Of a stretch of 64,000 bases of DNA, positions 30,001 through 36,000 are shown one piece after another (the stretch's first letter is position 1; each line of letters begins with the position of its first letter). Source of the DNA: Callorhinchus milii. Lineage: Eukaryota. Made by a program: the position numbers. The stretch lies in NCBI RefSeq assembly GCF_018977255.1, contig NW_024704759.1, positions 8,618,001-8,682,000 of the forward strand, read 5' to 3'.

Positions 30001-33000
30001 CCCCTCAAATAAGATCTTCATTCACTCTATGGCTGTTTGTGGGACTTTGCTGTGTGCAGATTGGCTGCCGTATTCACCCACAAAATACACAGTCAAATCA
30101 CTTTAAAGCACAAGTGTGTTGAGAAGTCTTGACGTGACAAGGTGCCATATCAAATGCAAGGATTATTTTATATTATTATAAAATGGAAAGTGCTGTTTAG
30201 TCACCAGAACAGTCCAGTTGGTAGAATTCCATGTAATAAAAACTAGGCTTGTTTGAACAGCATAGGATAGAATACTCAGTTTATTTCATTCGTGAATAAA
30301 TCTCAATTGCATGGGAGATAGGTCTTCCTCACTCCTGGAATAAACCACTCCATTGCTCAATCTCTTTAATCCTTATCCAACAAGGAATTCTCTGAAAACA
30401 ACACACTTTGTAATACTGGATTTGGGAAACTCACTCAGAAATCAACCTGCAAAGGTGGTATTTTATAAAGGTTGCATTATTACTAAGGGACGGAGGGAAT
30501 GAGCGATAAACATGCACATTAGGAAGTTTCTCCCAGTGTCCTGGCCATAATCCCCAAATTAAATTGGTCATTAACTTCATGGATTTTTGTGGGACACTGC
30601 TGTGCGCAAATTGGCTGCCACATTCATCTACAAAATAAACAGTCACTGCGCTTTGCAATAAAATCTTGTAAAGCTCTTTGAGATGTTTTCTATACATGAA
30701 AGGCACTATATTAAATGAAAGGGTTAATTCATTTTATGTTATAATTTGAAGCAATTTGTAACAGGAGTTCCGATAACACAGAACGATTAATTCTTTCACA
30801 GCGTCTTAGGATCAGGTGGGTAATGTTCGAATCAAATTGATAATAGTACAAGACAAATTGGGGAGCAGAAAGGCAACAACAATAAAAATAATAATAATTC
30901 TTGCATTTCGTATTGCACCTTATCATTTTACGAATGCATCTCAAAGTTTTTCCCAGGATTTTATTGTGAAATGCAGTGACTGTATTTGTAGACAAACCAG
31001 CAGCTGATTTGCAAACAGCAATGTCCTACAAATAACCATCAGTGTGTACATGATGTGATAATCCTGTAAAATAGACTGATTTGCAAAAAGGGAATCTATT
31101 TACATCTAATGTGTAGTATAAACAGCATGTACAATGAGGAGTGATGGTGTTAATCTAAAGTTTGATTATTGAGCATGTTTCCCCATATTTACTCTAGTAA
31201 TTGCATAATTCTCTGCCATATGTTAGACTTGCCTATAATTTGTGGAGATTTGTAACTGGAGCTACTTATACGGACTCCAAATAGTAAATAAGGAATCCTG
31301 TTGGGACCTGGAAAGGGGCACTTATGTGCTCCCGGGTAGATCGTATGACCCACATCTAGTTAACAGCAATTTCTTGTTTGCAACTTGTGGGGAAGAAATT
31401 CCACCTGGATCTAGATTTATTCTATTTATGTAGCAATCCGGAGCATCTAAACATTGGCAAATTCTTAATATAGCCTTAATTTTGAAGCCAGCTTTCTGTA
31501 AGTTCTTTTAAGAACTTACAGAAAAGCGACCGCAAACGACAGACGTAATTCAACAATTTGACAAATTCTGGTTGCTCTGAAATGCGTCTGAAGTGGTGAC
31601 AACTTTATTTTCAATCCAATCTTTTGGCTGCTATTTTGTCATTGCTTTGTGTGACACATAGTAACTGTGAGAAAAACACATCCCTACTGTTATGCATTTT
31701 GAAAAGGCCAATAATAAAATAATCACTTCTGATATTCATAAATGCTGCAACTGATGTCTTGATCCACATCTCCCAGCTGTTACATATGTTAACCCTTTAG
31801 AGAATGAATGAGGAACATAAATATCATTGGACATATAATAAAAAATCCTATTAAAAGTGTAGCATATAAACAAAAATAGTGTTAGTGAACCTCAATAATA
31901 ATATTATAATAATAATCCTTGCATTTGGTAAAGCACCTTATCACGTAGTGGAGACTTCTCAAAGTGCTTCACAGGATATACTGTAAAGTGTATTTTGTAA
32001 CTGTATATTTTATGGCAGCCAGTTTGCGCACAGCAATGTCCCACAAACAGGCATGGAGTGAGTGACCAATTTTATTTGTGGGATTTTTGGCCAGGACAAC
32101 ATTGTAATGCTAATCCTTGCATTTAATATATTGTCTATAACGCCGAGCATATCACAAAGTTTTTCTAAAGTGTACGAGTGAGCAAACACACCAGCAAATT
32201 TATGCACAGCCATGAAGTGAAACCCAATCTTGTTTGGGGGATTGTTGGCCAAGATACTGGGAGAAAGTACCTTCTCTTTCAATTGGTGTGATGGAGCTTT
32301 TAACATCCTACTTCAACAGGCAAGTGGGACCTCGATTTAAGGTCTCATTTGAAGGACAATGTAGTGCTCACCAAACACCGCATTGAGGTGTCAGCCCGGA
32401 TTATGAACTCAAACTCCCAACGTAGGGTTTCACCCATTGCCCATTGCACCCAATGCCTTCTGACTGACAGACGAGCATGTGGATGTCAGACTGACTGACA
32501 TCCTGACTGACAGACTGACAATACCCAACTGTTGATTGAACTATCGATTCGTACAAATACAGTTAGTTCCTTCACGTCAGTAGATTCTGTCTCCAAATCT
32601 ACAGGACAAGGATGGTTCTGCACCATTTCTTTCGCCCACAACACCCTCCTTTGGGGACACATAGGGTAAGACTGTCATTACTAAGATGAATAAAGCCCCG
32701 CATATTAATTTCACTTTGGTCACTGACATCCATTAGAGAAAGGAGACTTTTATCCAAATGATCTGGGTTTGATTCAAGCTGAAGAGTCTGAGGTGTAAGG
32801 GCAGCATTCCAATTAGACCTTGCTTCCCAGTTCCCCAATGAATCTATCAAAGTGCATGACTGAAACAGAATTATTATGAAAATTCACAGGAAAGGACTGG
32901 AAAGCATATGATAAAAGTAATCAGAATTCTACTTAGTGTATCCTATGATGAATATCTTTGAGAAATTTCCATCTATCACCCTTCCTAGACATGCCACATC

Positions 33001-36000
33001 CATGAGACCAGAATGAACGAAATCAAAGCTCTCATAATTGATTTTTCTTCATACAAAAAACGTTTGCAAAAGTATGCATTCTGCTTAATCTAATGTGAGT
33101 TGATTGATGGATATATATCATATGATAATCCTTGCATTTGATATAGCACTCATCACAAGATCCCACAAGCAGTTATGAAGTAAAATACAACAACAAGATT
33201 TCATTTCGGGAGGACACGTCGGGAGGACGTCCCAAGGTGCTGGACAGTTGGGTCGGGAAAGTTCCATCTATCATCGTAGGATAAAATAATTTTATCGGGG
33301 GGGATTATTGGCCGGGACACTGGGGAAACTTTCTTCTCTTTTTCGAATTGTGTCATGGGATCCTTAATGTTCACCTGAACAGGCAGAGAGGACCTCAGTT
33401 GAACATTTCACTTGAGACATGGCACCTCCAGCAGTACAGAGCTCCCCCCAGGACTGCACTGGAGTGTCAATAAGTTCAAAAGTCCTGATGTGGGCTTAAA
33501 CCCACAACCCTCTGAATCAGAGACAAGAGTGCTATCAACTGAGCCAGACTGACATCTAACAGCCTGAATCAGATGTATATGTGAGATGACAAGTAATTAC
33601 ATTCAATTCTTTGCTGTTACCTTGGGCAAACACAAAGAACATTATTTTTGTCCAACTCATCCAACCATGCAAGATCAGATCACATTGAAAGATAATGCAA
33701 TTGCCTTACATTTGTGGATGGTGAAGAGTTAAAGGATCCAATTAAATATTGTATCAGACAGCAGAAAGCCACCATAGCTTTAAGAACTGCAAACATTTAT
33801 CACACATATAATTACATTTCTTTCTGGGCTCACAGCCAGATATTCCTTGCCGTTTTGGTGGCTCTTTCTGATTTGTAATTCAGATTTCATACTATCAGCC
33901 CCTTGCGAAATAATATTAATACTGGGAGCCATCTGCCAAGGTGTTGAGCTTAAGAACAAGCTCAATTCAGCTTCACATGGCCAGTGAATAGCAGAGACGG
34001 AAATAATATTTCTTTATTAAAGAACATGAATAAAAAAAATACTGAAATAATAAATATACATTTTAGGTGAGAATGTTGCACAGAACGAAAGTGCTAATTA
34101 AAAATGGGACACATGACAGATCATTTTCAAGTTTCCAGATTGAGTACAGTTTCAAAGAACATATGTAGCTGCAACGAGGATCTTAAATGATGTGGGGTTC
34201 TTCCTTTCCACAAATCTTTTTCTTGTTTGTGTATGACCTAAGACAACTTCAAACAGTTTCAGGAGCATTATGGATGTTGAAGAGAAATGGAAGTAGCCAC
34301 ACTTAGTCAGATGAAGATGGACCTCTATAGGATCCAATAAATTGTTAGCCTGGTCCTGATTTGAGCTCAGTCCTGGGCCTCTTCAATGTAATCCATAATG
34401 TAACAAAAATAATAATTCTTACATTTGTTATCCAGTAGCGCTTTTCATGTCAGGAGGAGAGTGACTGCAAAGTGTAGTGACTGTAGTTTATAGGTGAATG
34501 TGGAAAATAATTTGCACACAACATCGTCCCATAAACAGCCATGAAGTGACTGTCCTGAACACCCAGTAACATCAGTCTTCCAAGTGGTACTTGGGTATAC
34601 CAAATGCAGGGATTATTATTATTATTATTATTATTATAAAACCTTTTGGAAGTCTAAGTACACTACAAATGGATTTCCAAAGTGTCACCTCCTCAAAAAA
34701 GGTTTATGAGGTTTGTCAGACAAGATATAGCCCTTCTGGATCTGTGACTGGCTGTCATTTATCAGGTAATTTTTATACAGGTAATGTTCCACTTTGATTG
34801 ACTCCATCAGTTTTCTAATTGTTGAGGTCAGGCTATAGAGTCTGCAGTTGCCAGGTATGCTCCTTTCATCCTTCTTGCTTCCAGCCGGTAGGAACATCAG
34901 TAGTGGTGAATGACTCTTTGTTAAGAACATAAAAACAATCCTTGCATTTGATATAGCACCTTTCACATTAGGAAGAAGTCTCAAAGCGCTCACAGGATAT
35001 TACTGTATGTCACTGTTACAGAAATCTCCTGCTTTGTCTCTCTAAGTGCCCGAGGGTACAGTTCACCAATCCCGGGAGATTAGTTGAAGTTTCCTCCTGA
35101 GGCAGTCTTGTCTCTAGAGACGAGCTCATGGTGTAAAATGATTGACACCGCAACTGTATTAAGCTCAATCGAAAAGTGGTAATAAATTCTGCTCCAGCTT
35201 GTGTCAGTATTTTATTCTCCCACTTAAAGCATCGAGTGCAGGAATTCTGCCTGAGGCCACATGCATTTTACCTGCAGCCTGTTGTTTCCAGTGAAACATT
35301 CCCTATTGGAGACCTTCCAACCCTTCAACAATCTGGGGGAAAGTTCTGCATAAAAACTGATCGCCAAGGGAAGCAAAGCAAAATTAGGCCCCCAAAAATA
35401 AAACAATTTGAGCCCCTGAGCTCCAAATCCACTGACTCTGTTGATGGATAAGAGATCTGATCTCCACAAGATCAAATCAACAGGCAGAGGAAATGCATCC
35501 ACCTTACACATACACATGTTTCAGTTTACTGATAAGAACATTTTTAGGTTTAACCAGGAGTGAAGTATTCACCATGGACAATCTTCGGTCAATATAGATC
35601 CATTGTAGGCTCAGCTTCCCCGGTAACTTTCACATCATAGATAATGAGTTTAAATCATTGGCCCTTAATGCCCTGTTATGACCTTCATTGTTCAGTTTTG
35701 AATAATGTGCAAGACAACACAGTTCAACTGTGTTTCTGTCTATTCAACAGTGCCTTCCGGAGAATGAGAAAATCCAATTGCCTGAACTCTTTGATATTGA
35801 TCACATGGCTTCTGGGGTCAAACAGTTTTGTGCAATGATATTTTTGACACAAAAGCAGAGTTGTGCATTTTTCAAACAGCAGCGGCATAATAATGTTGCA
35901 ATGCTCATCACAACTTTGCTGGCAGATCGTTACACGCCTACAAAAGGCTTTCACAACTGACCCCATTTCAGAAATGTCTCAGTCTTCCAGATTCAGCTTG

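What the first reader, a model, noticed from the sequence alone, without database searches (positions are those of the whole stretch)
32939..33283. Patchwork templated filler at an L2 5' junction: direct plus inverted copy of DNA 300 bp away
Seen: the truncated L2 tail (~33182-33256) is followed by gaaagttccatctatca (33257-33273), a 16/17 match to 32962-32978. That runs into tcatcgtaggata (33271-33283), a 12/13 match to the reverse complement of 32939-32951. The two patches overlap by TCA at the switch. Known: short locally templated insertions with microhomology switches are a signature of polymerase-theta-mediated end joining, and filler DNA occurs at LINE 5' junctions. Inference: the L2 cDNA end was joined by iterative synthesis on nearby host DNA, as proposed at 11808 and 56310.
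Basis: partly seen in the sequence, partly recalled or inferred. Interest (0 to 1): 0.7.

Follow-up and report, generated by a model that had tools for sequence, protein, structure and literature searches.

The report
Locally copied filler at L2 junction
A 71-base stub of an L2 retrotransposon sits inside an older SINE, joined to the host DNA by about 23 extra bases that appear to be copied in two pieces from DNA 300 bases upstream, which is a known kind of scar for L2-type elements.

Summary
33257-33273 matches 32962-32978 at 16/17 (direct). 33271-33283 matches the reverse complement of 32939-32951 at 12/13. The two patches overlap by TCA. In the whole 64-kb window, both strands, these are the only other hits for either patch.

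A 5'-truncated L2 3' end (33188-33258, minus strand) lies inside an older SINE. The block of L2 plus filler is flanked by TAAAATA on both sides. Removing 33188-33288 in silico restores one continuous SINE alignment. The two patches tile the 23 unexplained bases (33259-33281) with 2-3 nt overlaps at each joint. The filler gets no score from a SINE profile and does not match the L2 copies in the window.

A second short L2 tail at 11766-11807 carries a roughly 46-nt inverted copy of upstream flank, seen by eye (28/29 ungapped core).

Templated "5' extra nucleotides" at L2-clade junctions are already published (PMC4245944, PMC4760211). This is a new instance of a known kind. Which polymerase made it (Pol theta or the L2 reverse transcriptase) cannot be told from sequence. 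One oddity stays unexplained: the filler shares a purine/pyrimidine pattern with the adjacent SINE stretch.

The parts
32939..32951 (+). Presumed template of patch 2, copied in inverted orientation. It lies 236-248 nt upstream of the L2 3' junction.
   Evidence: 12/13 to the reverse complement of 33271-33283. It is the only other hit in the window. No repeat was detected in 32500-33125 by nhmmer against the rest of the window.
32962..32978 (+). Presumed template of patch 1, copied in direct orientation. The offset to the copy is 295 nt.
   Evidence: 16/17 to 33257-33273. It is the only other hit in the window.
33122..33187 (-). 3' part of an older tRNA-type SINE (SacSINE1-CM-like by description). 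It covers model positions 21-56 and about 152-183, and lacks positions about 57-151.
   Evidence: nhmmer with a SINE profile built from other window copies. The left stretch adds about 20 bits when made contiguous with the body.
33181..33187 (.). Left copy of TAAAATA, a candidate 7-nt target-site duplication.
   Evidence: Positions confirmed. The same 7-mer recurs at 33282-33288. The SINE model positions overlap at the two break points (183-186).
33188..33258 (-). 5'-truncated L2-type LINE 3' end, 71 nt, beginning with the (CAA)n complement of a (TTG)n tail.
   Evidence: 61/77 identical to 27141-27217 and 53/67 to 10462-10528. It aligns with 8 other L2-type tails. The longer copies run on into an ORF whose best hits are Callorhinchus milii RT-domain proteins. 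Homology to the 27141 copy stops at GGA, 33256-33258.
33259..33281 (+). Filler (5' extra nucleotides), 23 nt explained by neither L2 nor SINE.
   Evidence: Identity to the SINE consensus at the collinear register is 10/24, below every 24-nt window of the SINE body (minimum 13, mean 19.8).
33282..33288 (.). Right copy of TAAAATA (candidate target-site duplication).
   Evidence: The SINE alignment resumes at 33285.
33289..33557 (-). Remainder of the SINE up to its 5' head.
   Evidence: nhmmer gives model 183-462 against 33285-33557 at 196.1 bits. 224 of 270 aligned bases are identical to the consensus. ARAGORN finds no intact tRNA in 33300-33700.

Best explanation
An L2-type LINE began target-primed reverse transcription at a nick in the plus strand after TAAAATA (33187), inside an older SINE. 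Only 71 nt of cDNA were made.

The cDNA 3' end had no homology to the other target end. I infer that it was extended twice on nearby DNA. The first extension was about 15 nt, copied in direct orientation from 32962-32978, entering on the GA overlap. After a switch on TCA, about 10 nt were copied from the opposite strand at 32951-32939. The new end (TA) could then pair with the 7-nt overhang of the other target end. Fill-in and ligation then produced the flanking TAAAATA repeat.

This is the 'annealing' or synthesis-dependent way of joining a LINE 5' end.

Shown: the anatomy and the matches.

Inferred: the order of events, that the filler arose during integration, and the enzyme. I favour a host Pol theta-type end-joining polymerase over the L2 reverse transcriptase, but only weakly.
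For: - The matches are 16/17 and 12/13. They are the only other hits for either patch in the window, at 0.04 and 0.05 expected, and the two templates lie 10 nt apart.
- 1 of 25000 Markov 27-mers could be tiled from the flanks, and none reached the observed score.
- Independent boundaries agree with the patches. L2 homology ends at 33258 and the SINE profile resumes at 33285.
- Excising 33188-33288 gives one continuous SINE alignment, model 152-462, at 215.9 bits, against 196.1 plus 10.0 bits split as found.
- Keeping the filler in place of the left SINE stretch adds 0 bits.
- The L2 fragment shows few mismatches to a 6-copy majority (15 match/2 mismatch, 30/5 and 6/1 in three stretches). That fits 2 mismatches in 27 between filler and template.
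- Window-scale survey: 2 of 9 L2 5' junction flanks carry a local match of 15 or more bases. The controls were 0 of 12 L2 3' flanks, 0 of 9 SINE head flanks, 2 of 36 SINE tail flanks (both one tandem duplication) and 1 of 200 random windows.
- Literature, passages read: about 40-50% of zebrafish L2-clade inserts have 5' extra nucleotides, and a large fraction are derived from flanking sequence (PMC4245944, PMC2666801, PMC4760211). Snap-back synthesis from the cDNA 3' end is reported at R2 5' junctions (PMC11371274).
Against: - This is a single locus with no empty-site allele or orthologue available.
- The two patches need templates on opposite strands. One-ended snap-back on a resected flank therefore cannot explain both.
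- The templates lie 209-248 nt from the nick. By my recollection that is farther than is usual for Pol theta insertions.
- The filler shares purine/pyrimidine class with the SINE stretch 101 nt to its left at 21 of 24 positions, and with the SINE consensus at 20 of 24. This model leaves that as coincidence. The coincidence is weakened because 3 of 880 registers of the consensus reach 20 of 24.
- The candidate duplication is 7 nt and A/T-rich. The right copy is followed by sequence lacking 3 model positions.
- Only about 550 nt of the L2 3' region exist in the window, so an origin of the filler from upstream L2 sequence is not excluded.
Confidence: 0.68

Rival explanations
1. The event is the same, but the L2 reverse transcriptase itself made the filler by template jumping or switching from the L2 RNA onto nearby nucleic acid. 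No host end-joining polymerase was involved.
For: PMC2666801 (passage read) states that a large proportion of 5' extra nucleotides of ZfL2-2 in DT40 cells appears to be made by template jump (unpublished data there). Ku70 or LigIV loss did not change junction types. Inside the same L2 fragment, 33205-33213 replaces about 13 nt found in 8 other tails and repeats 33219-33228. That could be a slip by the same enzyme.
Against: By my recollection, template jumping of non-LTR reverse transcriptases goes to template ends, not to internal sites of chromosomal DNA more than 200 nt away. PMC4760211 (passage read) later proposed a DNA polymerase instead.
Confidence: 0.2
2. A later template-switch mutation (replication- or repair-based) that has nothing to do with L2 integration happened to land at the junction.
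For: Direct plus inverted patches with 3-nt microhomology are what short template-switch events give (recalled). The filler-template identity of 25/27 would also fit a younger event.
Against: The patches fill exactly the space between the L2 5' end and the right TAAAATA. A second L2 5' junction in the window has the same feature. Of the 10 events of 16/17 within 400 nt in the window, those not explained by tandem duplication or paired repeats are few, and two sit at L2 5' junctions.
Confidence: 0.08
3. The filler is not templated from upstream. It is a diverged copy of the SINE stretch 33157-33187, meaning a 31-nt target duplication or the SINE's own segment that became hypermutated. The upstream matches are then chance.
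For: At the offset set by the two TAAAATA copies, 21 of 24 positions keep purine/pyrimidine class, with 13 transitions and 3 transversions. 8 of the roughly 95 24-mers in the window with 20 or more of 24 are this same SINE segment in other copies. With an earlier, smaller profile, nhmmer extended into the filler (33261-33342; 33271-33343 in the region search, posterior 0.4-0.6 over the filler).
Against: Identity is only 8/24 to the left stretch and 10/24 to the consensus, while the SINE body is 83% identical and no 24-nt window falls below 13. The better profile gives the filler 0 bits. Two unrelated registers of the consensus reach the same class score. L2-clade duplications peak at 3-5 bp (PMC4245944, passage). 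The model also needs the 16/17 plus 12/13 match to be chance.
Confidence: 0.07
4. Copying ran the other way: 32939-32978 received two patches copied from the junction sequence.
For: It would reconcile the local match with the SINE-like purine/pyrimidine pattern. At the patch 1 mismatch (33261), the junction copy carries the SINE state.
Against: At the junction the patches are contiguous with a 3-nt overlap. Upstream they are in swapped order and 10 nt apart, which needs a more complex event. No repeat boundary or break signature is seen at 32939-32978.
Confidence: 0.04

Closest known systems
5' extra nucleotides (5' EX) of L2-clade LINEs (ZfL2-2, ZfL2-1) templated by flanking genomic or LINE DNA. 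Source papers: Kajikawa et al. 2012 Gene, known to me only through citations; Yamaguchi et al. 2014 (PMC4245944); review PMC4760211.
   Same: Extra bases sit between a 5'-truncated L2-type insert and the target. They are derived from flanking sequence, show short microhomologies, come with a short target duplication, and are proposed to build a pairing between the LINE end and the genomic end.
   Different: Here the templates lie 209-248 nt from the nick and on both strands, giving a two-patch mosaic. I could not read the 2012 paper, so I cannot say whether such distances or mosaics were reported. The host here is a cartilaginous fish, and the case comes from a genomic fossil rather than an assay.
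Polymerase theta-mediated end joining and synthesis-dependent MMEJ templated insertions (PMC4912351, PMC2943611 and PMC5728401; search listing and start of abstract only).
   Same: Short templated tracts in direct and inverted orientation, repeated rounds of synthesis, and 2-3 nt microhomology at each switch.
   Different: The break is a retrotransposition intermediate and not a simple double-strand break. The template distance is larger than I recall as typical. Dependence on the enzyme is untestable here.
cDNA snap-back synthesis at R2 5' junctions (PMC11371274, passages read).
   Same: The cDNA 3' end primes extra DNA synthesis before the 5' junction forms, sometimes on nearby target DNA.
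   Different: There it copies mostly the cDNA itself. Here both patches copy host flank, and one is in direct orientation.
L1 twin priming (5' inversion).
   Same: An inverted segment sits next to a truncated LINE 3' part.
   Different: In twin priming the inverted segment is LINE sequence. Here it is host DNA, and only 10-13 nt of it.

Membership tests
Templated 5' extra nucleotides at LINE 5' junctions | Extra bases lie between the 5'-truncated LINE end and the target DNA | tested here: met
   L2 homology ends at 33258. The SINE (the target) resumes at 33282/33285.
Templated 5' extra nucleotides at LINE 5' junctions | Extra bases belong to neither the LINE nor the target consensus | tested here: met
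   0 bits from the SINE profile. 10/24 identity at the collinear register. No hit to the L2 copies in the window. Caveat: only about 550 nt of the L2 3' region is available.
Templated 5' extra nucleotides at LINE 5' junctions | Extra bases match flanking DNA beyond chance | tested here: met
   16/17 and 12/13. They are the only other hits in the window. 1 of 25000 null 27-mers tile.
Templated 5' extra nucleotides at LINE 5' junctions | Short target duplication typical of the L2 clade (peak 3-5 bp; PMC4245944) | tested here: inconclusive
   TAAAATA occurs at 33181 and 33282. It is 7 nt and A/T-rich. Excision restores the SINE alignment.
Polymerase theta-mediated end joining | Microhomology at each template switch and short templated tracts | tested here: met
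   Overlaps of GA, TCA and TA, read. Net tracts are about 15 and 10 nt.
Polymerase theta-mediated end joining | Template close to the break (tens of bases; this criterion is recalled, not taken from a call) | tested here: not met
   The templates are 209-248 nt from the nick at 33187 (coordinates).
Polymerase theta-mediated end joining | Genetic dependence on POLQ | not testable with these tools
   Needs an assay.
L2-clade LINE (L2-2_CM-like) | The fragment is the 3' end of an element whose longer copies encode a reverse transcriptase | tested here: met
   Tail alignments. The ORF 10643-10981(-) hits C. milii proteins carrying PF00078 at E=1e-23.
L2-clade LINE (L2-2_CM-like) | RT phylogeny or similarity to the Repbase L2-2_CM consensus | not testable with these tools
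   No repeat library is held. PMC5499810 (passages) says C. milii SINEs share their 3' end with L2-2_CM, which fits the shared SINE and L2 tail seen.
Twin priming / 5' inversion | The inverted segment is LINE sequence | tested here: not met
   The inverted patch matches host flank 32939-32951, where no repeat was found.

The most novel reading that the evidence does not exclude
In this cartilaginous-fish genome, aborted L2 reverse transcription (tails of 40-70 nt) is routinely rescued by rounds of synthesis on templates 100-250 nt away on either strand. That would imply long single-stranded or opened flanks at the integration intermediate. Old L2 junctions would then hold a readable, genome-wide record of a Pol theta-like repair activity over hundreds of millions of years.
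Probability: 0.15. Interest if true: 0.55.

Novelty: new member of a known kind. Interest (0 to 1): 0.3.

Why it matters
The locus is a clean natural example of how an L2-type insertion that stalled early was stitched into the chromosome. L2 end, two copied patches, target duplication and target tile without a gap. With the companion case at 11808, it suggests that a genome-wide survey of short L2 tails would give template distance, orientation and microhomology spectra for 5'-end joining in a basal vertebrate. The principle, extra nucleotides templated from flanking DNA at L2-clade 5' junctions, is already in print, so the value is as data for that model and not as a new mechanism.

Tried and rejected
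- First anatomy, later dropped. From the MAFFT alignment of 11 SINE copies I took the filler for the SINE's own segment and the L2 piece for a replacement of about 48 nt of SINE. A better profile showed that this segment is present to the left, at 33156-33190.
- A long (31-nt) target duplication was considered because of the purine/pyrimidine pattern. I rated it unlikely.
- The null using real window 27-mers was contaminated by repeats, with 0.36% tiling. I replaced it with a Markov null.
- nhmmer of 32500-33125 against the rest of the window found nothing, so no repeat explains the template region.
- ARAGORN found no tRNA in the SINE head.
- The 27299/27508 inverted 17-mer turned out to be two L2 copies head to head and not filler.
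- The 56310 case looks like repeated sequence.
- Kajikawa et al. 2012 is not held.
Supplements of the cited papers (junction tables) were not opened.
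Full report
**Observation.** 33257-33273 is identical at 16 of 17 positions to 32962-32978. 33271-33283 is identical at 12 of 13 positions to the reverse complement of 32939-32951. The two patches share TCA. The window has no N, and its G+C is 0.35-0.47 across 2-kb bins.

**Chance.**
- The 17-mer (up to 2 mismatches) and the 13-mer (up to 1 mismatch) each have exactly one other hit on either strand of the 64-kb window. Both hits lie upstream, 10 nt apart. Expected counts were 0.04 and 0.05, and 0 of 100 shuffles gave two hits in either case.
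- Across the window there are 6 direct and 4 inverted events of 16/17 within 400 nt. 40 order-2 Markov block shuffles gave 0.125 and 0.175 on average.
- Of the 10 real events, 4 are tandem or segmental duplications, 2 are neighbouring SINE copies, 1 is a pair of L2 copies and 1 is a hairpin. The remaining 2 sit at L2 5' junctions: this one and 11808.
- A 12/13 second patch within 9 start positions occurs at 1.5% of sites in 8 shuffles and at 3.7% of sites in the real window.
- In a site-specific test, 1 of 25000 Markov 27-mers could be tiled by a prefix and a suffix from +/-400 nt. None reached the observed score of 30.
- With 27-mers drawn from the real window, about 0.36% of 30000 tiled. That is because repeat copies elsewhere match the SINE and L2 in this flank. 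This null is therefore not informative, and I report it as such.

**Anatomy.**
- A self-comparison and profile searches show three elements.
- A SINE lies on the minus strand. Its head is at about 33557 and its 3' tail at about 33122. The window holds 44-52 hits to this family. This copy is 224/270 identical to the window-derived consensus and lacks model positions about 57-151.
- Inside the SINE lies a 71-nt piece, 33188-33258. It is 61/77 identical to 27141-27217 and 53/67 identical to 10462-10528, and it aligns with 8 other tails of that type.
- Those longer copies continue differently from the SINE. Copy 10455-11006 carries an ORF whose best database hits are Callorhinchus milii proteins with a reverse-transcriptase domain.
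- The piece starts with the complement of a (TTG)n tail.
- PMC5499810 (passages read) describes C. milii SINEs that share about 160 nt of 3' end with each other and with the tail of L2-2_CM. That fits the SINE and L2 tail similarity seen. I could not compare with Repbase, so the L2 clade assignment rests on that description and on my recollection of the ORF2 C-terminal motif.

**The junction.**
- My first reading took the filler for the SINE's own segment. The profile searches corrected this.
- The SINE segment in question (model 152-186) is present to the left of the L2 piece, at 33156-33190. The SINE resumes to the right at 33285 with model position 183.
- TAAAATA occurs at 33181-33187 and again at 33282-33288.
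- Removing 33188-33288 in silico gives a single SINE alignment, model 152-462, at 215.9 bits. As found, the alignment is split into 196.1 and 10.0 bits.
- Removing the left stretch instead and keeping the filler leaves the alignment starting at model 183 with 196.1 bits. The filler contributes nothing.
- The inserted block is therefore L2 (33188-33258), then 23 unexplained bases (33259-33281), then one copy of a 7-nt duplication.
- Boundaries set independently by L2 homology and by the SINE profile thus coincide with the ends of the local matches. I regard this as the strongest argument that the matches are not chance.

**Age.** Outside a small internal rearrangement, the L2 fragment shows few mismatches to a 6-copy majority: 15/2, 30/5 and 6/1 matches/mismatches in three stretches. 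Some of those mismatches are CpG sites that the fragment retains. The SINE is about 17% from its consensus. A younger L2 nested in an older SINE fits 2 mismatches in 27 between filler and template.

| Flank type (50 nt beyond the junction) | With a local match of 15 or more bases (at most 1 mismatch, within 400 nt) |
|---|---|
| L2 5' junctions | 2 of 9 (11808 and this one) |
| L2 3' junctions | 0 of 12 |
| SINE head junctions | 0 of 9 |
| SINE tail junctions | 2 of 36 (both one tandem duplication) |
| Random windows | 1 of 200 |

The numbers are small, and the boundaries come from nhmmer coordinates. The 11808 case is clear. It is a roughly 42-nt L2 tail (about 11766-11807) followed by an inverted copy of about 11594-11641. 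That copy is about 46 nt by eye and has a 28/29 ungapped core.

The 56310 case is different. The sequence beyond it recurs at about 55182-55270, and an L2 copy aligns through it to 56380. It may simply be repeat sequence.

**Mechanism.**
- The plus strand here has the polarity of the first-strand cDNA, so the filler continues the cDNA 3' end.
- The simplest account is as follows. After 71 nt the cDNA end left the RNA. It was extended on the strand complementary to 32962-32978, switched on TCA to the other strand at 32951, and then paired through TA with the 7-nt overhang of the other target end.
- This is the annealing pathway with extra nucleotides that the Okada laboratory described for L2-clade LINEs. 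About 40-50% of ZfL2-2 and ZfL2-1 junctions have extra nucleotides, and a large fraction are derived from flanking sequence. The authors propose that these extra bases create a stable pairing between the ends (PMC4245944, PMC2666801, PMC4760211; passages read).
- Snap-back synthesis from the cDNA 3' end, sometimes on nearby target DNA, is reported for R2 (PMC11371274, passages).
- The pattern also matches Pol theta's alternating templated modes (PMC4912351; listing and start of abstract only).
- The enzyme cannot be read from the sequence. One difficulty remains: the two patches need opposite strands as templates, so a simple fold-back on a resected flank explains only the inverted patch.

**Unexplained.**
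- At the offset fixed by the two TAAAATA copies, the filler and the SINE stretch to its left agree at only 8 of 24 bases. They agree in purine/pyrimidine class at 21 of 24.
- Against the SINE consensus the figures are 10 and 20 of 24.
- Only about 1e-4 of the window's 24-mers reach 21, and several of the near hits are the same SINE segment in other copies.
- A hypermutated 31-nt duplication would explain this. Against that, identity is below every window of the SINE body, the profile gives the filler no score, two unrelated registers score the same, and the local matches would then be chance.
- I keep this reading as a minor rival.

**Comparison and verdict.**
- It is an instance of a published phenomenon rather than a new one.
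- What may be unusual is the distance of the templates (209-248 nt from the nick) and the direct-plus-inverted mosaic. I could not read Kajikawa et al. 2012 or the supplementary junction tables to see whether these features are already documented.
- No orthologous locus, repeat library or genome-wide data were available, so both the timing of the filler and its generality remain inferences.

Noticed in passing
window 11766-11855 and 11594-11641: A roughly 42-nt 5'-truncated L2 3' end (about 11766-11807) is followed from 11808 by an inverted copy of the flank 125-170 nt upstream. The copy is about 46 nt by eye and has a 28/29 ungapped core. This is a stronger case of locally templated (snap-back type) filler than the finding itself.
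   Followed up: partly
window 27136-27672: Two L2 3' ends lie head to head: minus sense at 27136-27320 and plus sense at 27317-27672. Each has its own (TTG)n-type tail. This could be two insertions or priming from both target strands.
   Followed up: partly
The sequence beyond it is a direct repeat of DNA 1.1 kb upstream, roughly 90 nt by eye with a 33/34 core, and nhmmer with another L2 copy aligns through it to 56380. It may be repeat sequence rather than filler.
   Followed up: partly
window 33205-33228: Inside the L2 fragment, about 13 nt present in 8 other L2 tails are replaced by a second copy of the neighbouring 10-mer, at 13-nt spacing. This may be a polymerase slip in the same insertion event.
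   Followed up: partly
window 33156-33158: This SINE copy joins model position 56 directly to position 152, an internal deletion of about 95 nt.
   Followed up: no
window 47391-47815: A tandem duplication of about 195 bp, nearly identical, includes a SINE tail and its flank.
   Followed up: no
window 13155-13199: A near-perfect hairpin with a 19-nt stem (one mismatch) and a 7-nt loop, in apparently unique DNA.
   Followed up: no
window 33512-33521 and 33564-33573: A 10-mer from the SINE head recurs 52 nt away, just beyond the SINE 5' end. This may be chance or a small local copy at that junction.
   Followed up: no
whole window: SINE-derived sequence is very dense, with 44-52 profile hits in 64 kb. 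Two SINE types share one roughly 160-200-nt 3' domain. The best protein hits are to Callorhinchus milii, so the window is probably from a chimaera or other cartilaginous fish.
   Followed up: partly
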